Of a stretch of DNA of 64,000 bases, positions 2,719 to 57,001 are shown one piece after another. Both the position numbers and the translations under genes were made by a program. Within the stretch, counting starts at the first letter, position 1, and each line of letters begins with the position of its first letter. Source of the DNA: a candidate division WOR-3 bacterium (GTDB taxonomy: Bacteria > Hydrothermota > Hydrothermia > LBFQ01 > DSFT01); the NCBI GenBank assembly GCA_965649115.1, contig CBFGJN010000002.1:987-64986 (forward strand). The letters run 5' to 3'. Under the pieces are notes generated by a model, which saw only the letters and a list, made by a program, of their open reading frames with translations, was not told the origin of the DNA and made no database searches.

Positions 2719-2746
2719 GCTCTGTCCCCCTGATGGCAAAAGAATT

Positions 2747-2801
2747 GCAGAATTTTTGGACACAGCAAAAATAGAAATTCTCTTCCCTTTAAAATTTTAA
2801 T
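2747..2801 (+). promoter_or_regulatory. Predicted sigma70-like promoter for a leaderless transcript: -35-like TGGACA ... TTTAAAATTTTAAT immediately upstream of ATG (TAAAAT at -12..-7 relative to the A of ATG)
   Basis: The same architecture recurs at 9571..9606, 14901..14960(-), 19900..19926, 24718..24760(-), 27924..27966 (bidirectional), 30641..30676, 35901..35949, 41967..41990(-), 43383..43410(-), 43480..43498, 53090..53103 and 59950..59975(-). Confidence 0.55.
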
Positions 2802-9367: not shown

Positions 9368-9606
9368 TTTAAAATTTTAATGGATAAATTGCTTATGTTT
9401 TTGCCTTGTTTAGTAATTCGGCAAGGGGGCTAAGAATTATTGCTTTGTCCAATAATTATTGTTAAATTCTTGATTATCAATAACTTATAAAAGCTTTGAG
9501 GAAATTATAGATTTAAATGGGTATTTATAAGGCGAAGGCTTAAATATAGAAATAATTATATTTTTAGAATTACTAGACAAACCAAAGAATTATAAGCTTT
9601 AAAATT

Positions 9607-10386
9607 TTGACTATGAATTATCAAAATATCCTTTTGTTTTTTGAAAACGAAATAGCTATTATTAAACTAAATAGACCCAAGTCTTTAAATGCTTTAAATA
9701 AAGAGTTAATGAGAGAACTTGCTGATTGTATAGAGAAACTTGAAAATGATAAAAATGTAAAAGTTATTATTATTACTGGTAATGAAAGAGCTTTTGCAGC
9801 AGGTGCGGATTTAAATGAGTTTTACAATAAAACACCTAATGATATGTTTGAAAATTATAGATTTTTGGAATGGGAAAGAGTTTATAAATGCTTTAAACCT
9901 TTAATAGCGGGAGTAAGTGGTTATGCACTTGGTGGTGGTTTTGAACTTGCCATGATTTGTGATATGATTGTTGCTTCTGATAGTGCTATTTTTGGACAAC
10001 CTGAAATAAATGTAGGTCTTATGCCAGGTGCTGGTGGAACCCAACGATTGACTAAAATTATTCAAAAACAAAGAGCAATGGAATATATTTTAAGTGGTAA
10101 GTACATAGATGTTTGGACAGCTTATAAATTGGGAATTGTAAATAAAATCGTTCCAACAGAAATTTATCTTGAAATGACAATAAAATTTGCAAAGGAATTT
10201 TTAAATAAACCTCCAATATCTTTAAATATAGCAAAGGATAGTATAAAAATGAGTTATGAAACGAATCTTCAAGAAGGTCTTGAATACGAAAGAAGAATGT
10301 TTTACTATTTATTTTCTACAAAAGATTCAATGGAAGGTGTTAAAGCTTTTCTTGAAAAAAGAAAACCAAACTTTAAAGGAGAATGA
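9607..10386 (+). CDS. Enoyl-CoA hydratase/isomerase (crotonase) family protein
   Basis: AFAAGADLNEF oxyanion-hole region, GYALGGGFELAMICD, and an overall length of 259 aa. Confidence 0.85.
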   Translation: MTMNYQNILLFFENEIAIIKLNRPKSLNALNKELMRELADCIEKLENDKNVKVIIITGNERAFAAGADLNEFYNKTPNDMFENYRFLEWERVYKCFKPLIAGVSGYALGGGFELAMICDMIVASDSAIFGQPEINVGLMPGAGGTQRLTKIIQKQRAMEYILSGKYIDVWTAYKLGIVNKIVPTEIYLEMTIKFAKEFLNKPPISLNIAKDSIKMSYETNLQEGLEYERRMFYYLFSTKDSMEGVKAFLEKRKPNFKGE

Positions 10387-14301: not shown

Positions 14302-14900
14302 TGTAATGTTAATGCATATAGAACGATATTCATACCAAATTTTAAAGCAGTTTCTTGAACTTCTGGTGGGTCGCCATGTCTATCTGTCCATCCATCAGAT
14401 ATATTACTTTCATATGTGTATAATAGAACTAATCTTTCCCCTATGAATATACCATATGCTTTTGGAGGTTTTCCATCGTGCTGATGAATTTTAGGAAGTT
14501 TATCAAATTTCCAATATATATTAAAAATTGGGTGATTTAATGGAACTTCTTCAAGCTCTTTATCAGGAAAAACCTTTTTAATTTCTCTTCTAAAATAACT
14601 ATCAAGCCCATAATCATCATCTACATACAAAAATCCTCCTCTTTCAAGATAATCTCTCAAATTCTTTGCATCTATTTCAGAAAAATAAACATTGCCATGT
14701 CCCGTCATATAGACTATTGGATAATTAAAAATTTCTTTACTACTTGGTTTTACTACTGCTTGTTTTTCATCAAGGTCTATATTTATGTACTTCTTTATGA
14801 ATTTTACAAGATTTGGGATAACTTCTGGATCGTTATACCAATCACCTCCTCCCTCATATTGTAGTCTTGCAATTTGAAATGAAAATAAAAGAAATAACAT
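14298..14900 (-). CDS. Hypothetical protein, DUF4159-like (GGGDWYNDPE ... YALT)
   Basis: Resemblance to DUF4159-type proteins is from memory of that family. Operonic with sbcDC through a 4-nt overlap. The start is preceded by TTTAAAATTTTAATAACTA. Confidence 0.4.
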   Translation of the reverse strand: MLFLLFSFQIARLQYEGGGDWYNDPEVIPNLVKFIKKYINIDLDEKQAVVKPSSKEIFNYPIVYMTGHGNVYFSEIDAKNLRDYLERGGFLYVDDDYGLDSYFRREIKKVFPDKELEEVPLNHPIFNIYWKFDKLPKIHQHDGKPPKAYGIFIGERLVLLYTYESNISDGWTDRHGDPPEVQETALKFGMNIVLYALTLQ

Positions 14901-14940
14901 TAGTTATTAAAATTTTAAAGTAGATTTAGTTCTAATTTTT

Positions 14941-15012
14941 GCTGTGTCTAGTAATTCTGAAATATAGATTATTTCTTATTTTGCCCGCCCACCCTGAAAA
15001 TAAGGCTTTGCC
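14941..15012 (-). repeat. A-type intergenic repeat module, full copy. Terminus GCTGTGTCTAGTAATTC, then an AT-rich palindromic region, then GCCCGCCCACCC and a short hairpin.
   Basis: Near-identical copies occur at 9518..9582(+), 24747..24824(-), 24901..24976(-), 30578..30650(+), 35838..35914(+), 39718..39790(+), 47419..47470(-) and 49463..49547(-). Confidence 0.8.
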
Positions 15013-15143
15013 CCCCTATAATCCCCCATAAAATCAATAATTTCTTTAAAAATTTTATAAGTTATTGACTATCAATCACTTAACACCATTTGCTAGACAA
15101 AGCATAATTATTTGCCTTGTCTAGTAATTAAGCCTTCCGCTTT

Positions 15144-15262
15144 AAAAAAACCCCAACTTTTGCTTTCGGAGGGGCATAGCTCCCCTTATCCCCATTAAAG
15201 CAATAATTTTCTTGAAATTTTAATTGATTATCAAGGACTTAACATTATTTATTGGACAAAGC
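15144..15262 (+). repeat. B-type intergenic repeat module, full copy. Sequence runs CCCCAACTTTTGCTTT, then a GGGG..CCCC hairpin, then TTGATTATCAA palindrome, ending TTATTGGACAAAGC.
   Basis: Copies or variants occur at 15005..15103(+), 24977..25043(+), 25508..25622(+), 47471..47541(+), 24825..24883(+, short) and 9441..9481(-, partial). Confidence 0.8.
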
Positions 15263-15298
15263 AGCAGGAGGACTTTATTTCACTTTAAAATTTCAAAC

Positions 15299-15871
15299 TT
15301 GAAGGAGAATTTAAGAGCTATTTTTTTATTGCCCATTATAAAGCTTTTTGTTAAGTTAAATATAAATCCTAATTTATTGACGATAATGACCCTCATTTTA
15401 AACTTAATTCCATTTTACTTTTATTCAAATAAAAATTTTTTATTGGGTGCTATCAGTTTAATTTTAATAAATTTATTTGATGCTATGGATGGAGAATTAG
15501 CAAGAATAACTAATAAGACTTCAAAATTAGGAGCTTTTTTAGATTCAAATTTTGATAGAATTTCAGAAGCTTTAATTTTTCTATCACTTATCATAGCTTT
15601 TAAAGAAAATTTTTTAATTCAAATACTTTTAATAATCTGTGGTTTTGGTTCATTTTTAATTAGTTATATAAGAGCTAGGGGTGAGTCATTGGGTGTTCTT
15701 ATTAAGGCAGGTCCTATGGAGAGAGCTGAAAGAATTTTTTTTATAGCGTTAATGACAATTTTTGTAAAATTTATTTTTTTGTTTCTTGTTATTTTCTCAA
15801 TTTTAATTTACATAACGATTATTAGGAGGATTTATGAGGGTTATAAAAAAATGAAGTTAAGTAATTTCTGA
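15299..15871 (+). CDS. CDP-alcohol phosphatidyltransferase (PgsA/PssA-like)
   Basis: Signature DAMDGELARITNKTSKLGAFLDSNFDRISE, i.e. D-G-x2-A-R-x8-G-x3-D-x3-D. The annotated ATG at 15224 lies inside a repeat module. A TTG at 15299 follows the TTTAAAATTTCAAAC box, and a downstream ATG at 15386 is an alternative start. Confidence 0.65.
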   Translation: MKENLRAIFLLPIIKLFVKLNINPNLLTIMTLILNLIPFYFYSNKNFLLGAISLILINLFDAMDGELARITNKTSKLGAFLDSNFDRISEALIFLSLIIAFKENFLIQILLIICGFGSFLISYIRARGESLGVLIKAGPMERAERIFFIALMTIFVKFIFLFLVIFSILIYITIIRRIYEGYKKMKLSNF

Positions 15872-16226: not shown

Positions 16227-16270
16227 AGGGCTAAAATTTTATAGGAAGGCATAACCTTGGCATAAGATTG

Positions 16271-16307
16271 GACACAGCAAAAACTTATGCTTTAAAATTT
16301 TAGAACT
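16271..16307 (+). promoter_or_regulatory. Predicted promoter for tRNA-Asn: TGGACA, 16-bp spacer, TTTAAAAT, 9 bp to the mature tRNA 5' end
   Basis: Canonical -35/-10 spacing. The mirror arrangement (TTGGACACAGCA, 16 bp, TTTAAAATTTTCAAACT) precedes tRNA-Lys on the minus strand at 47390..47432. Confidence 0.6.
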
Positions 16308-18386: not shown

Positions 18387-19811
18387 ATGAAAGAGCTTTT
18401 AAGGGATATTTTTAGAAAAAGGACATATGACCCTGAAAAAACGCAGTTTGTAAGAAAGCTTGGTGTTCTTGATCTTACGGGAATAGGTATAGGTGCTATT
18501 ATAGGTGCTGGTATTTTTGTAATTACAGGGCAAGTTGCTGCTAATTATGCTGGTCCTGCAATTGTTTTATCGTTTATTCTTGCGGGATTAACTGTTCTTG
18601 TAAGTGCTCTTGTTTATGCTGAATTAAGTTCAAGATTTCCAATAACGGGTAGTGCTTATAGTTATACTTATACTTCATTTGGAGAGTTTTTGGCTTGGCT
18701 TGTTGGTTGGAACTTACTTCTTGAATATGGAGTTTCGGTTGCAGCAGTAGCAAGTGGATGGTCTGGCTATTTTCGATCATTATTAGAAAAAAGTTTTGGT
18801 ATTCATTTCCCTGATATTATTAGTGGGAAATCACCTATTTTTTTAAATTTACATTTTGATTTAATAGCATTTCTTGTAGTTATAGCAGTTTTCATTTTGT
18901 TATTTATTGGAATAAAGGAAAGTTCAAGTGTTAATTTATTTATTGTTTTTATAAAATTATTTACACTTGGTTTATTTTTAGCAGTAGGTTTGTTTATTGT
19001 TGGTATTGATTTGAATAATCTTAATCCTTTTATACCTGAACCTTCAAAGAATTTTAAGGGTGAAGATGCTTATGGATGGTTTGGTATTTTAAGAGCTGCA
19101 AGTATTATTATTTTTGCTTATCTTGGATTTGATGCAGTTTCAACAGTTGCAGAAGAGGCTAAAAATCCTACAAAAACTGTTCCTTTGGGTGTTTTATTAT
19201 CACTTTTAATTAGCACATTTTTATATATTAGTGTTAGTTTTACATTAACTGCTATTGCTCCTTATAAGGAACTTAATGTTTCTGATCCTTTGGCGAAAGC
19301 TATGTACATGCATGGACAAGTTCTTGTTGGGAATATCATAGCCATTGGTGCTATAATAACAATTACAAGTGTTATGATTACTATGGGACTTGGATTTACA
19401 AGAATTGCTTATGCATTAGCAAGAGATGGATTACTATTTAGTGCATTTTCAAAAGTTCATCCAAGGTTTAAAACACCTTATATTTCAACAATAGCAGGTG
19501 CAATTTTGCTTAGTATTTTAGCTGGTTTCGTTCCGTTGACTGAACTTGCAGAACTTGTAAATGTAGGAACATTATTTGCCTACTTTGTAGTTGGACTTTC
19601 AGTTTTATATTTAAGAATAAAGAATGAACCAGGTGGAACATATAGAGTTCCATTTCCTTGGGTGCTTATCCCTATAAATTTGGCTTTAATAATTTTTATA
19701 ACTTCTGGCCTTCCACCATTAACTTGGATAAGATTTTTTGTTTGGCTTATTATAGGAATTTTAATTTATGTGTTTTATGGTTATCATAAGTCTAGAAAAG
19801 TTTGGCGTTAA
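18387..19811 (+). CDS. Amino acid permease (APC superfamily)
   Basis: 12-TM topology and a GAGIFV...G motif near the N-terminus. A GGAGG RBS is present. Confidence 0.85.
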   Translation: MKELLRDIFRKRTYDPEKTQFVRKLGVLDLTGIGIGAIIGAGIFVITGQVAANYAGPAIVLSFILAGLTVLVSALVYAELSSRFPITGSAYSYTYTSFGEFLAWLVGWNLLLEYGVSVAAVASGWSGYFRSLLEKSFGIHFPDIISGKSPIFLNLHFDLIAFLVVIAVFILLFIGIKESSSVNLFIVFIKLFTLGLFLAVGLFIVGIDLNNLNPFIPEPSKNFKGEDAYGWFGILRAASIIIFAYLGFDAVSTVAEEAKNPTKTVPLGVLLSLLISTFLYISVSFTLTAIAPYKELNVSDPLAKAMYMHGQVLVGNIIAIGAIITITSVMITMGLGFTRIAYALARDGLLFSAFSKVHPRFKTPYISTIAGAILLSILAGFVPLTELAELVNVGTLFAYFVVGLSVLYLRIKNEPGGTYRVPFPWVLIPINLALIIFITSGLPPLTWIRFFVWLIIGILIYVFYGYHKSRKVWR

Positions 19812-19823
19812 CAAGAATAAGGC

Positions 19824-19895
19824 ACTACAACATTGCTTTGTCCAGTAAATAATGTTAAGTAAAAAGCCCCCCGAAGCCGAAATATGGCACTACAA
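19824..19895. repeat. B-module fragment plus GC hairpin flanked by 12-bp direct repeats GGCACTACAACA
   Basis: GGCACTACAACA occurs at 19822 and again at 19884, bracketing a B-terminus fragment (GCTTTGTCCAGTAAATAATGTTAAGT) and a GC hairpin (GCCCCCCGAAGCCGAAATATGGC). Confidence 0.5.
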
Positions 19896-19926
19896 CATAA
19901 TTTATTTACTTTAAAATTTTGAAACT

Positions 19927-23780: not shown

Positions 23781-24717
23781 AACTTGTATTGTCAAAGTAG
23801 ATTTTCAAAATATACAAACCGTTTTTCAATTTTAGTTTTATTTCATGCTCTCCAGGTTTCATAAATCCTATATCTCTTTCTTCTACTTTACTTCCATTTA
23901 TTGAGAAAATCTCGTATCTTAAATACCTTTCATTGATAAGGTTTATTATTAATTTGCCATTTTTTATATCAAACTTATCAAAGGGTAATTTGGCTTTCTC
24001 ATCATTTGAGAGTGGAGTAAATGTTCCACAGGAACCACTTGCTACCCATTTTGTTATTCTTTCAAGGTAGTTGTTCGTTCCAGGATCCACACAATTCCAC
24101 GAAAAACAATGGTCAGTATATACAATTCTGCCGTTTCCATAATTTCCAACCATTAATGTTGGATCATTTGGTCCATTTGTTGGATCTATAATTAGTACGC
24201 TCCACGAGTTACTCCACGAACCTTCAATATCATAATCACCCGAGGTTTCAGCTATATTCAATCCAGATGTTATTGGGTGTAGTGGAGCGAGTGGTGTATA
24301 TTGTTGGCAGCTTGAAGTCCCGCAGTTCCACCAAGCACTTGAAACAGAAATTGAAAAGATAGCTGGTAAAGTGGGAACATTTCCTGCTTGATTTGGTTGA
24401 TTTATCCAATAACCTCCACCCATGAGAACGTAGTTTTGTAAGTTTGTCGATAGGAAGCCTAATGACCATATTGCTTGAATATCTACTAAAACAACATCAT
24501 ATTTACATAGCGAATCTGCACTTATATTTCCAAGGTTATTCACCTGAACTTGATAAACACTAGCACCAAGTGAAGATAACCTACTTGGAGTATCGTAAAG
24601 ATTTGAATAGATATACAGAACCTTTACTCCATTTAGAGCATTTAGGCCAACTTCGGGATTTTTATAATTTCCTTCTGTTCTTCCATCACTATAAAATAAG
24701 AAGTTAAGGATTAGCAT
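23758..24717 (-). CDS. Secreted hypothetical protein with T9SS-type C-terminal sorting domain-like tail
   Basis: The C-terminal ~80 aa beta-rich tail (GKLIINLINERYLRYEIFSINGSKV...LYILKIYF) resembles Por/T9SS C-terminal domains. The start was placed at the Met preceded by TTTAAAATTATTTTT. The track's TTG at 24738 is the alternative. Confidence 0.5.
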   Translation of the reverse strand: MLILNFLFYSDGRTEGNYKNPEVGLNALNGVKVLYIYSNLYDTPSRLSSLGASVYQVQVNNLGNISADSLCKYDVVLVDIQAIWSLGFLSTNLQNYVLMGGGYWINQPNQAGNVPTLPAIFSISVSSAWWNCGTSSCQQYTPLAPLHPITSGLNIAETSGDYDIEGSWSNSWSVLIIDPTNGPNDPTLMVGNYGNGRIVYTDHCFSWNCVDPGTNNYLERITKWVASGSCGTFTPLSNDEKAKLPFDKFDIKNGKLIINLINERYLRYEIFSINGSKVEERDIGFMKPGEHEIKLKLKNGLYILKIYFDNTSFTKAFEF

Positions 24718-24746
24718 AAAAATAATTTTAAAGCACAACTTTTTAC

Positions 24747-25043
24747 TGCTTTGTCTAGTAATTCTAAAAATATGATTATTTCTATATTTTCCCCACCCAC
24801 CCTATATTTAAGCCTTTGGCTTTAAAATACCCATTTTTCGGCAGAGGGGGGCTTTTTACTTAACACTATTTACTAGACAAAGCTACTTTTTACTGATTTT
24901 GCCTTGTCTAAGAATTCTAAAAATATATATTTTACTATATTTTTCCCACCCGCCCTGAAATTAAGCTTTTCCGCTTAAAAATACCCCAACTTTTGCCTAT
25001 AGGGGGCTTTCACCCCCATTAAATCCTATTTATTGGACAAAGC
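24747..25043. repeat. Tandem array of A(-), B(+) short, A(-), B(+) modules filling the spacer between two minus-strand genes
   Basis: Each module was recognised by alignment to the copies listed above. Confidence 0.75.
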
Positions 25044-25095
25044 GGAAAAATAAAACTTTGCTTCATAAATAACCTTTTTTAGGCATTTGGGGGCT

Positions 25096-25485
25096 TTAAT
25101 TTTTGATTTTTTTTCTTATTTCATTCGCTCTTTCTTTTAAACCCATTTTTTCATAAATTTCTGCCATTTTTTTATAAACTTCATTTTCAAGTTTTGAATT
25201 ATAACCATAAGTTTTTTGGATATATTTTATAAGTTCGTTATATACAAGAAGTGTAGTTTCATATTCCTTTTTTTCTTCAAGAGCTTTTGCTAGAAGAAGA
25301 TGGGCATTTATAATCGTATCTGAAATTTCTTTATATCTTGGAACTTTTCTTAAAAAGTTTTTCAAATAGTAAATTGAAGAATCGTAATTTTTTAAGTTAT
25401 AGAAATAAATTGCTTTTTTGTATTCGGAAATATCTATATCCTTTAAATTATTTTGACAGGATAAAAGTAAAATGAAAAAAATCAA
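25096..25485 (-). CDS. TPR-like lipoprotein
   Basis: The annotated N-terminus (to 25584) is translated from a B-type repeat. A TTG at 25485 gives MIFFILLLSCQ with a lipobox. Confidence 0.45.
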   Translation of the reverse strand: MIFFILLLSCQNNLKDIDISEYKKAIYFYNLKNYDSSIYYLKNFLRKVPRYKEISDTIINAHLLLAKALEEKKEYETTLLVYNELIKYIQKTYGYNSKLENEVYKKMAEIYEKMGLKERANEIRKKIKN

Positions 25486-25628
25486 TGTTCTAATGCTGTG
25501 TCCGTATTTCGGCTTTGGGGGGCAAAGCTCCCCATTAAAACCCAGCATAAAATCAAGAATTTCAGAAAATTTTTTATAAATCATTGATTATCAAGCATTT
25601 AACAACATTTATTGGACAAAGCAACATT

Positions 25629-26594
25629 CTAATTAAAAATTCCATTTTCAGTTATATAACCTGTTATAAGATGTTTTGGTGTTATATCAAAAGCATAGTT
25701 TAAAACATTCGCACTTTCAATAGTAATTAAAAAGTTCTTGAATTTTATAACTTCATCTTTTTTTCTCTTTTCTATTATAACTTCTTCTAATTTTGAACTT
25801 TTGTCAATTGTTGATGTTGGGAAAGCTGTCCAAAAAGGAATTTTATAATAATTACATAAAATTGCGATATTTAATGTTCCAATTTTATTTATTAATGTTC
25901 CATCGCTCAAAACTCTATCTGCTCCAACAATTGCTAAATCTATTTCTCCTTTTGACATAATAAAAGCAATAGAATTATCTGTTATTAATTCGTATGGAAT
26001 TTTTAATTTTTCAAGTTCATATATTGTAAGTCTTGAACCTTGTAAATAAGGTCTTGTTTCAGGAACAATAACTTTATTAATTAAATTATTTTCAAATGCT
26101 TTATAGATAATTCCAAGAGCAGTTCCAATTCCCGTTGTTGCTAAAAATCCTGTATTACAATAAGTTAAGACTGAACTTTTCTTTTTGAAAATTTTTAATC
26201 CATTTTGAGCAATTTTAAGGCACCTTTCTTTTTCTTCGTTATCCAAATTTATTACGAATCTGAATAATTCTTCTTGTAAATTTTTAGAATTTAAAATGAT
26301 TTTTTCAATTTCTTTTAAAGTATTAAATAAATTTACAGCTGTTGGTCTTGAATTTTTTAGAATTTCAATAGATTTTAATAATTTTTCTTTATTGTTTTTT
26401 TTCATTGCTTCTATTAAAATAGCATAACTACTTGCAATTGCTATTAATGGTGCCCCTCTTATTGCCATATTTTTTATTAAATTTGACATTTGATAAGCAC
26501 TTTTAACCTCTATGTAAATTTCATTAAATGGAAGTTTTCTTTGGTCTAAAATAAATAATTTGTTATTTTCAAAAATTAATGGTTTTGGTATCAT
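25629..26594 (-). CDS. mtnA: Methylthioribose-1-phosphate isomerase / eIF-2B alpha-beta-delta family
   Basis: Family-typical core (IRGAPLIAIA, GADRV..DG...NKIGT). Confidence 0.75.
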   Translation of the reverse strand: MIPKPLIFENNKLFILDQRKLPFNEIYIEVKSAYQMSNLIKNMAIRGAPLIAIASSYAILIEAMKKNNKEKLLKSIEILKNSRPTAVNLFNTLKEIEKIILNSKNLQEELFRFVINLDNEEKERCLKIAQNGLKIFKKKSSVLTYCNTGFLATTGIGTALGIIYKAFENNLINKVIVPETRPYLQGSRLTIYELEKLKIPYELITDNSIAFIMSKGEIDLAIVGADRVLSDGTLINKIGTLNIAILCNYYKIPFWTAFPTSTIDKSSKLEEVIIEKRKKDEVIKFKNFLITIESANVLNYAFDITPKHLITGYITENGIFN

Positions 26595-27923: not shown

Positions 27924-27966
27924 AAGTCTGAAAATTTTAAAGTTTGTGCCTTAAAATTTCAAGCTT

Positions 27967-30407: not shown

Positions 30408-30676
30408 AAACTCTTATGAATTTATTTTATTTGGTGTTTTAAGGTGTAGCCCTAGAAAAAATTATTTATTAGAACCAAAGAATTAAGAAATTGTATTTAT
30501 TTTATAAAGGTTTATAGTGATGGCAAAGAAGTTTTAAGTTTGAAAGCAATTAAAAACTAAGCCGAAAATGAGAAAGTAGAGCCGAAGGCTTAAAAATAGG
30601 GTGGGCAAAATATAATAAAATAAATAGTTTCAGAATTACTGAGCATAGCATTTCTTTATCCTTTAAAATTTTAGAC

Positions 30677-35673: not shown

Positions 35674-35949
35674 TATCCGTTAGCCATTAATTTTATTTTT
35701 GCTTATAAATATCTTTCTTTTTTGTATTCTCTCAAAACCCCCCAAAGCAAAAGAATAGAGTATTTTAGGGCAGGTGGGTAAATATAGAAGACAACTGCAA
35801 CGATTGTTTTAATGGGGGGATTATAGGGCGAAGTTTTAAGCCATAGGCTTATTTTCAGGGTGGGCAGGGAAAAATATAGAAAAATATATATTTTTAGAAT
35901 TACTAGACACAGCAGAGGACAAATTCTTAAAGCTTTAAACTTTTCAGAT

Positions 35950-39579: not shown

Positions 39580-39717
39580 TAGCAGAAATAACCAATAACT
39601 TCAAAGCCCTCTCTGCTGAAAAATAGGCATATATTTGTCTAGTAACTTGTGAAAACTTAATGAAATTATTTATTTAATTTAGGGCTTTGCCCCATAGCCT
39701 GAAAATGGGTATTTATA

Positions 39718-39790
39718 AGTGGAAGGCTTAATATCAGGGCGGGGAAAATATAATAAAATAAATAGTTTTAGAATTACTAGACACAGCAAG
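39718..39790 (+). repeat. A-type module copy whose promoter-like end points into the 3' end of the convergent proline dehydrogenase gene
   Basis: GGGCGGGGAAAATATAATAAAATAAATAGTTTTAGAATTACTAGACACAGCA followed by a 17-bp spacer and TAAAAAT. Confidence 0.7.
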
Positions 39791-41966: not shown

Positions 41967-42032
41967 TTTTAAAATTTTAAAGGCTTTTTGTAAGTTATAT
42001 TTATTTCTATATTTTGCCCACCCGCCCTATAT

Positions 42033-43382
42033 TCAAGGCTTCGCCTTTAAAAAACCCCATCTATTGAAAGCAAACTTTTCCTTTATAAATTTATAAATTA
42101 AAAAGTTAGAAATGAGACCATGTCTTTTAGCTATTTCATATGCTCTTTTTTCCCAGCCTTTTATGATATATTTAGCAACTAAATCTTGTTTTCTGTGCTT
42201 AACAATTAGTTTTAAATCCTTATTTAAAATTGCTAAAAATGTAGGTTTTTTAATTTGTAAAATGAAATTTTTGGCTTCTTTTAATTTCCCTTCAATATAA
42301 AGAGCAAATGCTTTTGCCAACTTATAGTTATCATCATCAAATTCTCTATTTACAATATCAATTTCTATGGTTTTTATTTCCAATATAAATCTCAAGTGAT
42401 TCCCTTTTAAAAAGTAAGACAAAGCTTTTAAAATTTTAAAATAAATACTATCGTCTGAAATTCTTGAAAATTCTTCAAAATTTCCTAAGTGGAATTTTAG
42501 TTTTTCATCTTTAAATAATAAATGTGCTTTTTTAATATGTCCTAAACTTACAAGAATAGAATATATTAGTTTTGAAAGCTCACTATCTTTTAAATTTTTA
42601 TATGATTTAATCCACCTTGAAAAAATTGGAAATAGTTTCTTATAAACTTCACTATCATAATAAAGACTATTTAAAATCAATAATAAAATTGGTTTTTTAA
42701 TTTGCTCTGGGAGTTTTAAAAATTCATTTAAATGCCTTTTAAAAATTTTTTTTATTTCATTATAATTACCAGATGCTCTTAAAAACATAATTTCAGGAAT
42801 AAATAAACTATAATATGTTAAAAGAAATTTTCTTTTTAATGCTAATTCTTTGTATTCCCTTATTTTATAAATCATTTCCTTGGTTGTTATTAAAATTGTT
42901 TTAGAATGGAAAATTTTTGAATAAATATAAGAAAATTTATAAACTACTAGATTGATGGGCAGTAAATTATCAGGAAGTTTCAATAAAATATCATAATCTT
43001 TTTCACTTGAAGGAATAAAGTGTTTTAAAAATTTTTTTAGATTTTTCAAATCATTTTTTTCAAATAAATAATGAACAAGTTGATTTATCTGCTTATTTTC
43101 TTTAAATCCATAAATATCATAAAGTGAAAGTTTAGAATAAATAGTAGAAATTGGCATTTTAAAAATTTTTGACAAATCTTTTAGATTTAAAAATGGGTTT
43201 TTCTCAAAGTAAATATAAATTTTATATGCTTCTTTGTCATATTCAAAAAAATTATTCTTTCTTTTAATTCTTGAAATTGTTGCTGGACTTAAATTTAAAA
43301 TTCTTGATATTTCTCTTATTTTAATCCCCTTTTTTATCATTTCATAAGCTTTAAACTTCTTTATAATATCGGTTTGTTTCAT
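42033..43382 (-). CDS. HTH-domain protein with long helical/TPR-like C-terminal region
   Basis: N-terminal HTH (IREISRILNLSPATISRIKRK). The start was set at the Met preceded by TTTATAATTTTCAATATT. Confidence 0.4.
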   Translation of the reverse strand: MKQTDIIKKFKAYEMIKKGIKIREISRILNLSPATISRIKRKNNFFEYDKEAYKIYIYFEKNPFLNLKDLSKIFKMPISTIYSKLSLYDIYGFKENKQINQLVHYLFEKNDLKNLKKFLKHFIPSSEKDYDILLKLPDNLLPINLVVYKFSYIYSKIFHSKTILITTKEMIYKIREYKELALKRKFLLTYYSLFIPEIMFLRASGNYNEIKKIFKRHLNEFLKLPEQIKKPILLLILNSLYYDSEVYKKLFPIFSRWIKSYKNLKDSELSKLIYSILVSLGHIKKAHLLFKDEKLKFHLGNFEEFSRISDDSIYFKILKALSYFLKGNHLRFILEIKTIEIDIVNREFDDDNYKLAKAFALYIEGKLKEAKNFILQIKKPTFLAILNKDLKLIVKHRKQDLVAKYIIKGWEKRAYEIAKRHGLISNFLIYKFIKEKFAFNRWGFLKAKP

Positions 43383-43498
43383 AATATTGAAAATTATAAA
43401 GTAAAGTGATAATAGCATTTTTAGACTTTTTGAAATAATAATAAATACTAGTGTTTCAATTGCCTAATAAAAATTGATTATTGTCTTAAAATTCTAAT

Positions 43499-47389: not shown

Positions 47390-47618
47390 AAGTTTGAAAA
47401 TTTTAAAGGACTAAAAATTGCTGTGTCCAAAAATTCTGGAATTATTTATTTTTCAAAAGCCTTCGGCTTTAAAATACCCATTTTTTGCTTTGGGGGGCAG
47501 AGCCCCCCTTAATAATCCCCCCATAATTATTGGACAAAGCAACTAAAAATTAGTTTTTTGAAAAACCCTGTCTTATGCCTTGCCCCCCTAAACCCCCCGA
47601 TAGATCAATTGATTGTCA

Positions 47619-49414: not shown

Positions 49415-49654
49415 TTTTTAACCTCCTTTTAAAGATTGAAAATTTTAAAGGACTTAAATTTTGCTGTGTCTAAAAATTATGAAAAATATATTTTTCTATA
49501 TTTCTCCGAACCACCCTGAAATCAAGCCTTAGGCTTTAAAATGCCCATATTTTCCGCTTTGGAGGTCAAAGCCACCCTAAAAACTATAATTTCAAAAAAT
49601 TTTTCGGAAATTAAAGCTAACTTTTTTATTTTAAGCTTTAAACTTTTAGCGTTT

Positions 49655-50233
49655 ATGAAGGTTGAAAATTTACTAAAATTTTTAAAAGAAAAAAGAGAGC
49701 AAATTATATTTGCTTTTGGCATTGTTCTCATAGTTATTATAATTTTGATTTATAATAATTTATCAAGTAAAAGGGTAAGTGCTGATAGTCAAGTTGCTTT
49801 CATTCAGGGTTTTTATGGAATTCAGTTTGGTGATACATCAAATGCTCCAAAAATTTTAATGGAACTTTATTCAAGAAATAAAAGTAATTTTATTGGTTTT
49901 TGGTCTGGTCTTGTTCTTGCTGATTATTATTATAAGTTTGAAAAAAAGGATAATTCTTATTCAATTTTAAAGACGATAAAACCATTTGATGAAATTGGTA
50001 AAACCGCATATAAAATTTTAGAAGCAAATTTAAAGTCTTCTCCTTCAAGTTTGAATATAAAAACTGACTTTAAATCCATAAATAATTATGTTGCTTATAG
50101 AAAGGCCAAAATGCTCCTTGCCAAAGGTGATAAAACGGAAGCTATTAGGTTATTTAAAGAAATATCAAAAGGCAATGATATTTTCTCTGAAATGGCAAAG
50201 GAAGAACTAAGGGCATTAGGAGAGAAGTTATGA
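49655..50233 (+). CDS. Membrane-anchored TPR-like protein
   Basis: The track ORF begins inside a repeat. The start was set at the ATG after an AGCTTTAAACTTTTAGCGTTT box. One TM segment, then a helical repeat region. Confidence 0.45.
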   Translation: MKVENLLKFLKEKREQIIFAFGIVLIVIIILIYNNLSSKRVSADSQVAFIQGFYGIQFGDTSNAPKILMELYSRNKSNFIGFWSGLVLADYYYKFEKKDNSYSILKTIKPFDEIGKTAYKILEANLKSSPSSLNIKTDFKSINNYVAYRKAKMLLAKGDKTEAIRLFKEISKGNDIFSEMAKEELRALGEKL

Positions 50234-50589: not shown

Positions 50590-53094
50590 ATGTTCTTAAA
50601 TAATGAGCGATTTACCGATAAAGCAAAAAGAGCGCTTCTCTTAGCAAGAGAGGAAGCTTTAAGATTTGGAAATGAATATATAGGAACTGAACATCTTTTG
50701 CTTGGAATACTTAATGTTGGTGAAAGTATCGCTATTTCTGCTCTTACAAATTTGGGTGTGGATATAGAAGAGCTTAGAATAGCTGTTGAACATTCCATTC
50801 ATAGAGGTGAATTTTCAAGGAGAGATCTTTCTGCTGAACTTCCACTTAATGCTTCATCAAAGAAGGCTATAAATGGTGCTATTGAGGAAGCAAGAAGAAT
50901 GGGTCAAACATTTGTTGGGCCAGAGCATTTGCTTCTTGGATTGCTAAAAGATAGAAGATCACTTGCTGCTCAAATTCTTGAAAGTATGGGTATTGATTAT
51001 GATAGTATAAGACAAGAGATAATTAGATTGATAAATCAAAATAGATATGAAGAATCTATGGGTTATTCATCTGGATATAGTTATTTTCCTTCTTATGAGC
51101 AAAGAAGAACAACTACACCACAAACACCAAGGCAATCAAATACAAGAGTTTTAGATAGTTTTTCAATAGATTTGACGCAATTAGCAAGGGAAGGTAAATT
51201 GGACCCTGTAATTGGTAGGGAGGAGGAGATTGAAAGAGTTATTCAAGTTCTTTCAAGGAGAAAGAAAAATAATCCTGTTTTAATTGGTGAGCCTGGTGTT
51301 GGTAAAACTGCTATTGTTGAAGGTCTTGCACAGAGAATAGCGAATGATGAAGTTCCTCCTGTATTAAGAAATAAGAGAATTGTTGCCCTTGATCTTGCTG
51401 CTATTGTGGCGGGAACAAAGTATAGGGGTCAATTTGAAGAAAGAATAAAAGCTATATTAAATGAAGTTATAAATGCTCCTGATGTTATACTATTTATAGA
51501 TGAGCTTCATACAATGATTGGAGCGGGAGCTGCGGAAGGTGCATTAGATGCTGCTAATATCTTAAAACCTGCACTTGCAAGAGGGCAAATAAGACTTATT
51601 GGTGCTACTACACTTGAAGAATATAAAAAATATATTGAAAGAGATGGAGCACTTGAAAGAAGATTTCAACCAATAATTATTGAACCTCCATCTGTTGAAG
51701 AAACTATTAGAATTCTCGAAGGTTTAAAAAGGGAATATGAAGAATATCATGGAGTAATATATACACAAGAGGCAATTGAAGCTGCTGCCAAACTTTCTGA
51801 TAGATACATTCAAGATAGATATTTGCCTGATAAGGCTATTGATGTTTTAGATGAAGCAGGTGCAATGGTTAAGCTTACTAAGCAGATTGACGATCCAGAA
51901 TTAAACAAACTTCAAAGAGAATTAGAACAAATTAGAAAAAGAAAAGCGTTTGCAGTTAGAAAAGAGGAATATAACTTAGCAGAAAAATTGAAACATAAAG
52001 AGGAAGAAATTCTTGAAAAAATTAGAAAGAGAAAAATGGAGATAAAAAAGGAAACTGCTGAGGTTACTTATGAAGATGTTGCTAAGGTAATATCCAGGTG
52101 GACAGGCATACCACTAACTCAAATAAGTTCAGATGAGGAAACAAAATTATTAAAACTTGAAGAAGAACTTAAAAAATATGTAATAGGTCAAGATTATGCT
52201 ATTAGCTTATTAGCAAAAGCTATTAGAAGGAATAGAGCAGGTATTAAAGATCCTAAAAGACCTATTGGTTCGTTTGTATTTCTTGGTCCAACAGGTGTTG
52301 GTAAAACTGAACTTGCTAAAAGTTTAGCAAGAGTACTATTTGGAAGTGAAGATGCACTTATAAGAATAGATATGAGTGAGTACATGGAAAGACATAATGT
52401 TTCAAGACTTATAGGCTCACCTCCTGGTTATGTTGGATATGAAGAGGGTGGTCAACTAACTGAAAAAGTTAGAAGAAAACCTTATAGTGTTATTCTTTTT
52501 GATGAAATTGAAAAGGCACATCCTGATGTATTTAATATATTGCTTCAAATTCTTGAAGATGGTATATTAACTGATGGACTTGGTAGGACAGTTAGTTTCA
52601 GAAATACAATTATAATAATGACATCAAATATAGGAACAAGACAAATTAGAGAAACAAAACATTTAGGTTTTTCAGTAAAAGAAGAAAAGGAACTTGATTA
52701 TAATGAGCTTGAAAAGTTATTGAAAGATGAATTTAAGAAGGTTGTTTCTCCAGAATTTTTAAATAGAATAGATGAAGTTATTGTTTTTAGACCATTAAAC
52801 AAAGAAGATTTGAAGAAAATTATTGAAGTTATGTTAAGAGATTTAAGAGAAAGATTGAAAGAAAAACATATTACGATAAAAGTTTCAGATAGATTAAAGG
52901 AATTTTTGGTTAATCAAAGCTATGACCCTGAATTTGGAGCAAGACCATTAAGAAGAGCTATAAGAAAATATATAGAGGAGCCAATAAGTGAAGCAATAAT
53001 AAAAGGTGAAGTTAAGGAAAATTCTGATGTTCTAATTGATTTAAATGAGAATAATGAAATTATTTTTAGAACGGATGTTTTAAGTGTGCTTTAA
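50590..53094 (+). CDS. clpC: ATP-dependent Clp protease ATP-binding subunit ClpC (ClpA/B family)
   Basis: Two Clp_N repeats, two AAA+ modules ([18 protein letters not shown]), a short middle domain and an HLGFS ClpP-docking loop. Confidence 0.9.
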
Positions 53095-53103
53095 AATTTC
53101 AAA

Positions 53104-55530: not shown

Positions 55531-56943
55531 TTGAGAAGAACAAAAATTATAGCAACATTTGGACCATCCTGTAAAAATGAAGAAATAATTAGAAAACTTA
55601 TAAAAAGTGGTGTAAATATATTTAGATTTAATTTTAGTCATTCAAATGCTGATGAACATATTAATAATGCTAAAATTGTAAGAAAAATAGCAAATGAAAT
55701 GGGTGTTAGAATAGCTTTTTTACAAGATTTAGCTGGTCCAAAAATTAGAATTGGAAAAGTAAAAAATGGTAAAGCGGTTTTAAAAGATGAACAGATATTT
55801 AAAATTACTATAAGAGATATTGAAGGAAATGAAGAAATTGTATCTGTAAATTTTAAGGAAATTTTAAATTATGTTCAAAAAAATGATATTATACTAATTG
55901 CAGAAGGAACAATTGTTTTAAAAGTCATTGAAGTCAATGAAGATGAAATAATTACAAAAGTTTTAAAGGGTGGTGAAATATCTTCAAATAAAGGTTTAAA
56001 CTTGCCATTTAAGGAAATAGATGTTTCCGCTTTAACGGAAAAGGATTTGGAAGATATAAAAAAAGGTATTGAATTTGGCTTTGACTACGTTGCAGTTTCA
56101 TTTGTTCAGAAACCATCTGATATTGAACTTGTTAGATACTATTTGAGGAAGTTTGGTTCACTTTCAAAAATTATTGCAAAAATTGAAAAGCCTGCAGCAG
56201 TAATGAGAATAGAAGATATTGTAGATGTTAGTGATGGGATAATGATAGCAAGAGGAGATTTAGGGATTGAGTTTCCAATAGAAGAATTACCAATAATTCA
56301 AAAAAAATTTATAAAATTATGTATTCAAAAAGGAAAACCTGTTATTACTGCAACTCAAATGCTTGAATCTATGATAAATAATCCAAGTCCTACAAGAGCA
56401 GAAGTTACTGATGTTGCCAATGCTGTTCTTGATGGTTCAGATGCTTTAATGCTTTCAGGCGAAACTGCAATTGGAAATTATCCCGTTGAGGCAGTTTCAA
56501 TTATGGATAAAATTATTAGAAAAGTTGAAAGTTCTATTGATTATTCAAGACCTCCTTTTAAAGTTTCTCAGGCACAATTAGATATTAATGATGCAGTTGC
56601 TTTTGCTGCTTATGAGCTTTCAAAGTTTTCAAATGCAAAGGCAATTGTTGCCTATACATTTTCAGGTGATACTGCTAGGAGGGTTGCAAAATTTAGACCT
56701 TCTGTTCCAATTGTTGCTATTACACCTAATGAATTTGTAGCAAATCAATTAGTTTTAAGTTGGGGAATTATTCCTATTGTTTCAGAAATGGTAAATTCAT
56801 TTGAAGAAATGGTAAATATAGCAAGAATGAAAGTTAAAGAAATAGGTTTAGTAAAGGAACTTTCAAAAATTGTTATAATAGCGGGATTGCCTCTTAAAGT
56901 TCCAGGAAATACGAATTTAATACATCTTACAGATGTTCATTAA
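55531..56943 (+). CDS. pyk: Pyruvate kinase
   Basis: TKIIATFGPS, MIARGDLGIE and an overall length of 470 aa. TTG start. Confidence 0.9.
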   Translation: MRRTKIIATFGPSCKNEEIIRKLIKSGVNIFRFNFSHSNADEHINNAKIVRKIANEMGVRIAFLQDLAGPKIRIGKVKNGKAVLKDEQIFKITIRDIEGNEEIVSVNFKEILNYVQKNDIILIAEGTIVLKVIEVNEDEIITKVLKGGEISSNKGLNLPFKEIDVSALTEKDLEDIKKGIEFGFDYVAVSFVQKPSDIELVRYYLRKFGSLSKIIAKIEKPAAVMRIEDIVDVSDGIMIARGDLGIEFPIEELPIIQKKFIKLCIQKGKPVITATQMLESMINNPSPTRAEVTDVANAVLDGSDALMLSGETAIGNYPVEAVSIMDKIIRKVESSIDYSRPPFKVSQAQLDINDAVAFAAYELSKFSNAKAIVAYTFSGDTARRVAKFRPSVPIVAITPNEFVANQLVLSWGIIPIVSEMVNSFEEMVNIARMKVKEIGLVKELSKIVIIAGLPLKVPGNTNLIHLTDVH

Positions 56944-57001
56944 ATTTAAAATCATTTATTTTACCACACACCCTGAAAATAAGGCGGAGCCCCCTCATAA
57001 G

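What the first reader, a model, noticed from the sequence alone, without database searches (positions are those of the whole stretch)
14901..15298. Pervasive family of two related intergenic repeat modules (A and B) with inverted terminal motifs, present in nearly every intergenic region
Virtually every intergenic region of this 64 kb window carries copies of two module types, including spacers between convergent genes. About 25 copies or fragments lie in 64 kb, pointing to hundreds or thousands genome-wide. This exemplar locus holds A(-), B(+), a truncated A(-) and B(+) back to back. Module A (~70 bp) reads GGGTGGGCAAAATATA(A/G)AAAATAA-TAGTTTCAGAATTACTAGACACAGCA and is preceded by a 4-5 bp GC hairpin of the form AAGCCnnnGGCTT. 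Module B (~110 bp) contains CCCCAACTTTTGCTTT, a GGGG(n6-9)CCCC hairpin, ATAAAATCAATAATTTC, the perfect palindrome TTGATTATCAA and the terminus TTATTGGACAAAGC. The two termini are inverted versions of one another, so a joined A(-)+B(+) pair looks like a MITE with 14-bp terminal inverted repeats. Copies vary by internal deletions, as degenerating mobile elements do. The gene-proximal terminus almost always lies 16-25 bp upstream of a TTTAAAATTTT box next to a start codon. The modules therefore look like promoter-bearing elements. They could be a mobile element that donates -35/UP sequences, or an unusually conserved modular promoter and terminator system. Neither is a standard annotated feature class.
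Basis: seen in the sequence. Interest (0 to 1): 0.85.

Follow-up and report, generated by a model that had tools for sequence, protein, structure and literature searches.

The report
Small mobile DNA repeats beside promoters
The repeats that fill almost every gap between genes here are copies of one roughly 200-bp non-autonomous transposon (a MITE) with IS903-like ends and 9-bp target duplications, which has spread through one lineage of uncultivated hot-spring bacteria and sits, in a preferred orientation, just upstream of gene promoters.

Summary
Modules A and B are the two halves of a single ~200-bp element, and the shorter copies are internal-deletion derivatives. It has imperfect 17-18-bp terminal inverted repeats (TGCTTTGTCYARTAA...) with 5'-TGC...GCA-3' ends. 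Ten of 21 two-ended copies are flanked by 9-bp direct repeats, nine of them perfect, and permuted flanks reach that length in about 1% of pairs. The ends match the IS903B inverted repeat at 14 of 18 positions, and IS903 also makes 9-bp duplications. This is therefore a MITE, probably derived from an IS5-family, IS903-group element. No transposase was found in the roughly 370 kb examined.

The window holds 15 profile hits (2.6% of its bases), in 14 of 16 true spacers. The family occurs in Candidatus Hydrothermia relatives at about 90% identity and is absent from relatives at 74-77%. It differs between strains that are 98.5% identical.

The TTTAAAATTTT box is a host -10 element for leaderless genes and tRNAs. 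It is not part of the repeat. The A end faces the box in 17 of 25 cases and the B end in 2 of 22. The A end lies 11-15 bp from the box, where its TAGACA/TGGACA reads as a -35 hexamer, or exactly 21 bp away. This is a new member of a known kind. The orientation and spacing bias is the interesting residue.

The parts
14909..14919 (-). Host -10 box (CTTTAAAATTTT) of the leftward DUF4159 operon. It is not part of the repeat.
   Evidence: The box lies 9 nt before the ATG at 14900. The box motif has 15 matches against 2.2 expected.
14940..15105 (+). MITE unit 1 of the exemplar. The A end is on the left, 21 nt from the box, and the B end is on the right. The middle of the B half is deleted.
   Evidence: nhmmer E=1e-40 over profile positions 4-206; alignment.
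15113..15264 (+). MITE unit 2 of the exemplar. The A body is deleted and the B half is complete. Its B end lies 21 nt from the box of the CDP-alcohol phosphatidyltransferase gene.
   Evidence: In L060, the orthologous promoter has an A end at 13 nt instead.
15284..15293 (+). Host -10 box, 5 nt before the TTG start at 15299.
   Evidence: (gene call of 190 aa).
2740..2767 (-). A-end fragment, 21 nt upstream of the box at 2788.
9402..9431 (+). A-end fragment facing the leftward PfkB-family gene promoter.
9441..9584 (-). MITE unit flanked by the perfect 9-bp duplication AAGAATTAT (9432-9440 and 9585-9593). Its A end lies 14 nt from the box at 9598.
16265..16280 (-). A-end remnant (TTGGACACAGCA). 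Its TGGACA lies 18 nt from the TAAAAT of the tRNA-Asn promoter.
   Evidence: Strain L002 has a different MITE remnant at this spot.
19834..19886 (-). One-ended B fragment flanked by the 13-bp direct repeat GGCACTACAACAT.
   Evidence: The flanking repeat is unexplained.
24747..24884 (+). MITE unit flanked by the perfect 9-bp duplication ACTTTTTAC (24738-24746 and 24885-24893). Its A end lies 15 nt from the box.
24900..25045 (+). MITE unit lying in tandem with the preceding one.
25495..25624 (+). MITE unit with the A body deleted. Its B end abuts the stop codon of gene 25629-26594.
30578..30653 (-). A half with a degenerate A end, upstream of the box at 30662.
35798..35915 (-). MITE copy without a B end. 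Its A end lies 20 nt from the variant box at 35934.
39632..39788 (-). MITE unit between convergent genes, with no promoter on either side.
41994..42064 (+). A-body fragment that overlaps and encodes the last ~10 codons of ORF 42033-43418.
47419..47541 (+). MITE unit flanked by the perfect 9-bp duplication ACTAAAAAT (47410-47418 and 47542-47550). Its A end lies 12 nt from the tRNA-Lys box.
   Evidence: It is identical in strain L067.
49462..49613 (+). MITE copy whose A end lies 13 nt from the box of the FBPase gene. Strain L067 has a different pair of copies here.
56935..56986 (+). Weak A-body fragment between convergent genes.
   Evidence: nhmmer E=0.0014; family D3.

Best explanation
The repeats are copies and decayed fragments of one miniature inverted-repeat transposable element (MITE) of about 200 bp. 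They are mobilised in trans by a DDE transposase that makes 9-bp staggered cuts, most probably from an IS5-family, IS903-group insertion sequence located elsewhere in the genome or now lost. Modules A and B are the two halves of this element. New copies land in the very short AT-rich spacers upstream of host promoters, and often exactly 9 bp from the end of a resident copy, which builds tandem arrays such as the exemplar. Copies then decay by internal deletion. Copies survive mainly with the A end next to the host -10 box (CTTTAAAATTT, the promoter of leaderless mRNAs and tRNAs). That end lies either 11-15 bp away, where the terminal TAGACA/TGGACA can serve as a -35 hexamer, or exactly 21 bp away. 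Shown here: the repeat family, the inverted repeats, the duplications, the differences between strains, the lineage restriction, and the orientation and spacing bias. Inferred: the transposase family, the role of the box as a -10 element, and any effect of the element on transcription. The confidence of 0.85 is for the MITE reading; the IS903-group assignment alone is about 0.55.
For: Twenty full-length copies align end to end, and the short copies differ from them by internal deletions. The ends are TGCTTTGTCTAGTAATTC and TGCTTTGTCCAATAAATA, which match each other at 14 of 18 positions. Ten of 21 two-ended units have a 9-bp direct repeat abutting the TGC...GCA ends, nine perfect and one with a mismatch. 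Three of these are in the window. Permuted flanks reach 9 bp or more in about 1% of pairs. The IS903B inverted repeat is GGCTTTGTTGAATAAATC with a 9-bp direct repeat (PMC10569121; the Rts1 copy; PMC2577343 table 1). The B end matches it at 14 of 18 positions, against about 5e-6 of random window 18-mers. The genome-collection scan found the family only in the Candidatus Hydrothermia MAG PSS.bin.3, often at contig ends. It occurs in relatives at ~90% identity and was not detected in the 74-77% relatives: none among the profile hits across all held loci, with no other intergenic repeat family in two of them (L048, L057). Spacer contents differ between close strains. Three or four of the ten duplicated targets lie 9 bp from another copy's end. 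The A end is next to the box in 17 of 25 cases and the B end in 2 of 22. Among the ten copies flanked by the 9-bp direct repeat the counts are 7 and 0. The box precedes both tRNAs and many start codons by 4-9 nt. The tRNA-Asn promoter in L058 is TTGACA-N18-TAAAAT.
Against: No transposase with these ends was found. There was no IS903-like hit in about 370 kb of Hydrothermia DNA, and Pfam scans of the window ORFs not already annotated gave none. The outermost base is T, where the IS903 group has G. The IS903 target motif WTTYA-N9-TRAAW is not visible at the ten intact sites. About half of the two-ended copies have no recognisable duplication. One one-ended fragment has a 13-bp flanking repeat. 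A purely parasitic model does not by itself explain the exact 21-bp spacing or the orientation bias. The modal 13-bp class gives a rather long -35 to -10 spacer of 19 nt.
Confidence: 0.85

Rival explanations
1. The element is a MITE that has been co-opted by the host. It would act as a portable promoter-upstream module, supplying a -35 hexamer and AT-rich upstream DNA on the A side and insulation from the upstream gene on the B side. Selection, or promoter-directed integration, would then fix its orientation and spacing. This extends the best explanation and does not replace it.
For: There is a strong orientation bias, which is also present among copies with intact duplications. The spacing is discrete: 11-15 or exactly 21 nt, with 11 independent promoters at 21. 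Two orthologous promoters switch between the 13 and 21 states in close relatives. In the first class TAGACA/TGGACA lies 17-21 nt from TAAAAT, like the native TTGACA-N18-TAAAAT. Terminator-like hairpins occur only when the element is read from B to A.
Against: There are no transcription data. Both ends carry the same -35-like hexamer, so the hexamer cannot explain the orientation. The 21-nt class has no -35-like hexamer at a usable distance. Promoters work without the element. Hairpin 2 is deleted in about a third of the copies, and only 5 of 20 copies have a terminator-like site. Spacers in this genome are so short that any tolerated insertion must lie next to a promoter.
Confidence: 0.3
2. 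The repeats are REP/BIME-like palindromic units, which would be spread by a RAYT (IS200/IS605-type) enzyme or by recombination and would act as structured RNA or DNA elements.
For: The element contains G+C-rich hairpins in a 26% G+C genome. Units occur in tandem. The location is strictly intergenic.
Against: REP/RAYT systems do not produce 9-bp duplications or 17-18-bp terminal inverted repeats (established knowledge), and both are present here. There is no conserved GTAG-type head. The hairpins are often deleted. No Rfam family matches.
Confidence: 0.03
3. The repeats are native, vertically inherited regulatory DNA (conserved promoter and terminator cassettes) and are not mobile.
For: Most copies lie next to promoters at fixed distances.
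Against: The family is absent from relatives at 74-77% identity, at least one of which (L048) keeps the same -10 box. Copies occur between convergent genes (39632-39788). Copies are flanked by target duplications. Orthologous spacers in strains 98.5% identical carry different copies. The copies in the orthologous spacer of L060, about 91% identical, are in the opposite orientation.
Confidence: 0.02

Closest known systems
IS903 / IS903B (IS5 family, IS903 group) and the MITEs derived from such elements
   Same: Both make a 9-bp target duplication. The terminal inverted repeat has a similar length and sequence: GGCTTTGTTGAATAAATC against TGCTTTGTCCAATAAATA, 14 of 18 positions. Both insert into AT-rich targets.
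   Different: This element is ~200 bp with no coding capacity. Its outermost base is T, not G. The IS903 target motif WTTYA-N9-TRAAW is not seen. No cognate transposase was found. The host is a deep-branching uncultivated thermophile, not an enterobacterium.
Correia elements of Neisseria (own knowledge)
   Same: Both are short (100-155 bp) elements with terminal inverted repeats, present in hundreds of intergenic copies that make up a few percent of the genome. Both have internal-deletion size variants. The ends of both create or carry promoter elements for adjacent genes, and both are associated with rearrangement breakpoints.
   Different: Correia elements duplicate a TA dinucleotide and have 26-bp inverted repeats of unrelated sequence. 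Their promoter activity has been shown experimentally, whereas here it is only inferred.
IS5 insertions that activate E. coli promoters from upstream (glpFK, flhDC, bgl; own knowledge)
   Same: The element family is related (IS5). Insertion is orientation-specific and lies upstream of a promoter, and AT-rich, bent terminal DNA is proposed to stimulate transcription.
   Different: Those cases involve full-length IS5 with a 4-bp duplication, at single loci, under selection in the laboratory. Here hundreds of MITE copies are fixed in nature and no functional test has been done.
Pneumococcal BOX elements and enterobacterial REP/BIME (own knowledge)
   Same: These are modular intergenic repeats (boxA/B/C; Y/Z REPs) that form hairpins, occur in tandem, and sometimes modulate neighbouring genes.
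   Different: They lack 9-bp duplications and do not have IS-like terminal inverted repeats.

Membership tests
MITE (non-autonomous DNA transposon) | Terminal inverted repeats | tested here: met
   The A-end and B-end consensus sequences match at 14 of 18 positions, with TGC...GCA termini.
MITE (non-autonomous DNA transposon) | Target-site duplication of fixed length | tested here: met
   A 9-bp direct repeat flanks 10 of 21 two-ended units. Permuted flanks reach 9 bp or more in about 1% of pairs.
MITE (non-autonomous DNA transposon) | Small size, no coding capacity, many copies | tested here: met
   Copies are 104-203 bp. There are 15 profile hits in 64 kb and 42 in the 152 kb of the 13 non-redundant sources that carry hits.
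MITE (non-autonomous DNA transposon) | Presence/absence or content differences between close relatives | tested here: met
   L043 is empty where L058 is filled. L067 differs from the window at 49415-49655. L002 differs from the window at 16258-16279. No perfectly clean empty site with a single target copy was recovered.
MITE (non-autonomous DNA transposon) | Autonomous partner with the same ends | tested here: inconclusive
   None was found in the ~370 kb held or among the window ORFs. Whole genomes could not be scanned.
IS5 family, IS903 group | 9-bp direct repeat | tested here: met
   compared with IS903B.
IS5 family, IS903 group | Inverted repeat of about 18 bp starting with GGC and resembling GGCTTTGTTGAATAAATC | tested here: inconclusive
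   Identity is 14 of 18 (B end) and 13 of 18 (A end), but the first base is T, not G. The comparison was chosen after the fact.
IS5 family, IS903 group | DDE_Tnp_1 transposase that acts on these ends | not testable with these tools
IS5 family, IS903 group | Palindromic target motif WTTYA-N9-TRAAW | tested here: not met
   Ten reconstructed target sites show only AT-richness.
REP/BIME (RAYT-mobilised) | No target duplication, and short palindromes with a conserved GTAG-type head | tested here: not met
   9-bp duplications and 17-18-bp inverted repeats are present.
Correia element | TA duplication and 26-bp inverted repeats of the Neisseria type | tested here: not met
   The duplication is 9 bp and the inverted-repeat sequence is unrelated.
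Any Rfam RNA family | A match at the gathering score | tested here: not met
   Only the two tRNAs match in the window. Permissive scans of two repeat spacers gave only chance-level hits.

The most novel reading that the evidence does not exclude
The transposase that moves this MITE may integrate it in a directed way: at fixed distances (about 13 or exactly 21 bp) and in one orientation upstream of the sigma-70-type -10 box. Alternatively, the host may have fixed only such insertions. Either way, the element would have rewritten the -35 and upstream regions of a large share of the operons in a genome that uses leaderless mRNAs. It may also provide the breakpoints at which operons are shuffled between relatives about 90% identical.
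Probability: 0.2. Interest if true: 0.65.

Novelty: new member of a known kind. Interest (0 to 1): 0.38.

Why it matters
The family appears undescribed: no paper in the searched library holds its terminal sequences and no Rfam family matches. It makes up about 2.6% of this stretch of a candidate-phylum thermophile genome. It explains why assemblies of these organisms fragment, because contigs end in the repeat. It explains why gene callers place false starts and ends in spacers. It may explain why gene order breaks at these spacers between close relatives. If the orientation and spacing bias reflects function or targeted integration, this would be a natural system in which a mobile element has remodelled most promoters of a compact genome.

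Tried and rejected
- **Rfam.** A scan at the gathering score and two permissive scans found only tRNAs and chance-level hits.
- **Literature.** Full-text search for the four terminal 14-mers found no paper. Searches for Hydrothermae/EM3 found nothing on repeats.
- **Viral contigs.** A scan with the 26-nt B end found no hit.
- **IS903B transposase.** tblastn against all Hydrothermia DNA held found nothing.
- **ORF 42033-43418 as the transposase.** This ORF has an HTH_28 match and abuts a MITE fragment. It has only a generic N-terminal helix-turn-helix, no DDE domain, no NCBIfam or PDB relative, and repeat ends in the wrong orientation, so it was rejected.
- **Intrinsic terminators.** None were predicted in 24600-25700. 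Only 5 of 20 full copies have a terminator-like site, all when read from B to A.
- **Structure.** Folding shows mainly pairing of the terminal repeats plus local hairpins. Covariation was not pursued, because hairpin 2 consists of homopolymer runs and is often deleted.
- **IS903 target motif.** It was not found at the intact sites.
- **Native -35 hexamer in the 21-nt class.** None was seen.
- **Other classes.** CRISPR was rejected on anatomy because the spacing is irregular, the units are not identical and they carry target duplications. Integron attC sites were considered only in passing, and no core-site search was run.
- **Clean empty site.** Four further exact-protein look-ups in near-identical strains (one found no record) gave one replaced spacer, two identical ones and one junction with an IS110-like element, but no clean empty site.

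Full report
**What the window is.** The window is about 26% G+C and is tightly packed with bacterial housekeeping genes, including ClpB, PolA, DnaB, rpsT, rpsF-ssb-rpsR-rplI and two tRNAs. Locus L001 from MAG GCA_039803085.1 is 99.85% identical to 20 kb of the window. GCA_965648865.1 is a strain at 98.5-100% identity. A scan of one genome per species with an 18-nt piece of the repeat gave multiple hits only in a Candidatus Hydrothermia MAG, PSS.bin.3. That MAG is about 90% identical to the window where the two overlap. Several of its hits lie at contig ends, as expected for a high-copy repeat.

The terminus motif TTAYTRGACAMAGC occurs 17 times against 0.23 expected. A profile built from full-length copies finds 15 copies or fragments in the window, covering 1,662 nt or 2.6%, and none in shuffled sequence. 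Fourteen of the 16 genuine spacers carry at least a fragment.

**A and B are one element.**
- Full-length copies in PSS.bin.3 and in metagenome relatives are about 200 bp long and contain A and B in a fixed order.
- The order is: TGCTTTGTCYARTAATTC, AT-rich DNA, CCCCACCCACCC, the AAGCC-N3-GGCTT hairpin, ACCCATTTTTCGGCA, the G6-N4-C6 hairpin, CCCCCATAAAATCAATAATTTCC, ATTGATTATCAA, and finally CACTTAACACTATTTATTGGACAAAGCA.
- The copies in the window are the same element with different internal deletions.
- The two ends are imperfect inverted repeats, matching at 14 of 18 positions.

**It transposed.**
- Ten of 21 units bounded by both ends carry a 9-bp direct repeat that abuts the 5'-TGC...GCA-3' termini; nine of these repeats are perfect and one has a mismatch.
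- Three of these units are in the window: AAGAATTAT around 9441-9584, ACTTTTTAC around 24747-24884, and ACTAAAAAT around 47419-47541.
- When left and right flanks are paired at random, repeats of 9 bp or more appear in about 1% of pairs.
- A fixed-length duplication next to terminal inverted repeats is the signature of a DDE transposase making staggered cuts (established knowledge).
- Three or four of the ten duplicated targets lie exactly 9 bp from the end of another copy. New copies therefore tend to land beside resident ones. This accounts for back-to-back arrays such as the exemplar.

**Which transposon family.**
- IS903B has the inverted repeat GGCTTTGTTGAATAAATC and a 9-bp direct repeat. 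This was confirmed in PMC10569121, in the Rts1 plasmid copy, which is 1,057 bp with the duplication GACACAACG, and in PMC2577343 table 1.
- The B-end consensus TGCTTTGTCCAATAAATA matches this repeat at 14 of 18 positions. About 5e-6 of random window 18-mers do as well.
- Together with the 9-bp duplication, this points to an IS5-family, IS903-group parent.
- The assignment is only probable. The first base differs, the IS903 target motif is not seen, the comparison was chosen after the fact, and no transposase was found.
- There was no IS903-like hit in about 370 kb of related DNA and none among the window ORFs scanned.
- ORF 42033-43418 has a transposase-type helix-turn-helix, but it looks like a helical regulator and was rejected.

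**Lineage restriction and turnover.**
- A metagenome scan with the permease at 18387-19811 returned orthologous regions at about 91%, 90%, 77% and 74% nucleotide identity.
- The element is present in the ~90% group and was not detected in any of the 77% or 74% relatives. Two of them, L048 and L057, were also checked for other repeats and show no comparable intergenic family; L048 keeps the same -10 box.
- The spacer downstream of the permease exists in at least four states. In L043 there is no element, and the stop codon is followed directly by the box of the next gene. In L058 there is a ~280-nt insert that includes a copy. L045 holds two fragments and has lost the box. The window has a different downstream gene and a one-ended fragment.
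- Between the window and a strain about 98.5% identical, the spacer at 49415-49655 holds different copies, whereas the tRNA-Lys copy is identical.
- The tRNA-Asn promoter carries different remnants in two strains that are 98.7% identical.

**Relation to promoters.**
- CTTTAAAATTT occurs 15 times against 2.2 expected.
- It lies 4-9 nt before the start codons of many first genes, 6-7 nt before the mature 5' ends of both tRNAs, and 25 nt before a gene that has a Shine-Dalgarno sequence.
- In L058 the tRNA-Asn promoter reads TTGACA-N18-TAAAAT.
- I therefore infer that the box is the host -10 element and that most of these mRNAs are leaderless.
- The box is not part of the element, because it occurs without the element in L043, in L048 and before rpsT.
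- The element sits immediately upstream of the box, and its placement is not random. The A end faces a box in 17 of 25 cases and the B end in 2 of 22. Among the copies flanked by the 9-bp direct repeat the counts are 7 and 0.
- The distance from the terminal ...AGC to the box is 11-15 nt at 12 promoters. There the terminal TAGACA/TGGACA lies 17-21 nt from TAAAAT, like a -35 hexamer.
- At 11 independent promoters the distance is exactly 21 nt, the spacer sequence is not conserved, and no -35-like hexamer is present.
- Two orthologous promoters switch between the two states in close relatives.
- Orientation follows the direction of the local gene, not the chromosome strand, so a replication-linked bias is unlikely.
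- I cannot tell whether this pattern reflects selection, through donation of a -35 or upstream element or through insulation, or directed integration. It is the one feature that goes beyond an ordinary MITE.

**Terminator idea.** The hairpins are real. However, only 5 of 20 full copies have a hairpin followed by a T-run, always when read from B to A, and none of these copies is in the window. Hairpin 2 is deleted in about a third of the copies. A terminator role is therefore weakly supported at best.

**Verdict.** The repeats are a new family of a well-known class, comparable to the Correia elements of Neisseria and to other IS-derived MITEs. No paper or RNA family covers them. Interest is moderate. 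The finding is useful for annotating and assembling these genomes, and the orientation and spacing bias upstream of leaderless promoters is a testable lead.

Noticed in passing
window, e.g. 2787-2797, 9597-9607, 16290-16300, 19909-19919, 27932-27942(-), 47398-47408(-), 53089-53099: The near-palindromic box CTTTAAAATTT(TAAA) lies 4-9 nt before start codons and 6-7 nt before both tRNAs. It looks like the -10 element of a genome that largely uses leaderless mRNAs. One gene (FBPase, 49414) has the box followed by a 25-nt leader with AGGAGG.
   Followed up: partly
window 15249/16268 and 19811; loci L058, L046, L060, L045: Homology between the window and relatives ~90% identical stops exactly at MITE-bearing spacers, and different genes lie beyond. 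Operon-sized blocks appear to be shuffled at these spacers.
   Followed up: partly
L070:1-1770 (GCA_965648865.1), junction at window 9607: A strain identical to the window through the MITE spacer diverges immediately after the box CTTTAAAATTT. There it has a segment with two small genes and a truncated IS110-family (DEDD) transposase in place of the enoyl-CoA hydratase gene.
   Followed up: partly
L046:6789-7869 versus L058:7319-7869: A ~530-bp cassette is duplicated in tandem, and the junction falls in the promoter box GCTTTAAAATTTAAA. From its sequence the gene looks like a Uma2/DUF820-type nuclease, which is an unverified impression. The two copies are about 92% identical.
   Followed up: partly
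window 19821-19899: A 51-nt one-ended B fragment is flanked by a perfect 13-bp direct repeat, GGCACTACAACAT. This does not fit the 9-bp duplication rule.
   Followed up: no
window 15224, 25584, 35860, 49541 (ORF starts) and 42033-42064 (ORF end): Mechanical ORF starts fall inside MITE copies, so the true starts lie downstream of the box. The last ~10 codons of ORF 42033-43418 are encoded by a MITE fragment.
   Followed up: partly
L043:2140-2230, also L058:11700-11790: A G+C-rich leader that looks structured (GGGGAATGGCGTCTCCCC...ACCAGAGGTGGGATGATGACGCC) lies between a promoter box and a downstream membrane-protein gene that I read as a cation/H+ antiporter (not checked against any family library). 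It may be a cis-regulatory RNA. It was not scanned.
   Followed up: no
MITE A half, e.g. window 24787-24801(-), 30598-30606: The strand read from B to A carries GGGTGGGTGGGG next to the G6 hairpin arm, giving four or more G-runs in a 26% G+C genome. It might form a G-quadruplex upstream of promoters. This is pure speculation.
   Followed up: no
L048:9556-12133: A long array of ~156-nt tandem repeats lies in a relative at about 77% identity. By eye it looks like coding sequence for a repeat protein (not checked). It is unrelated to the MITE.
   Followed up: no
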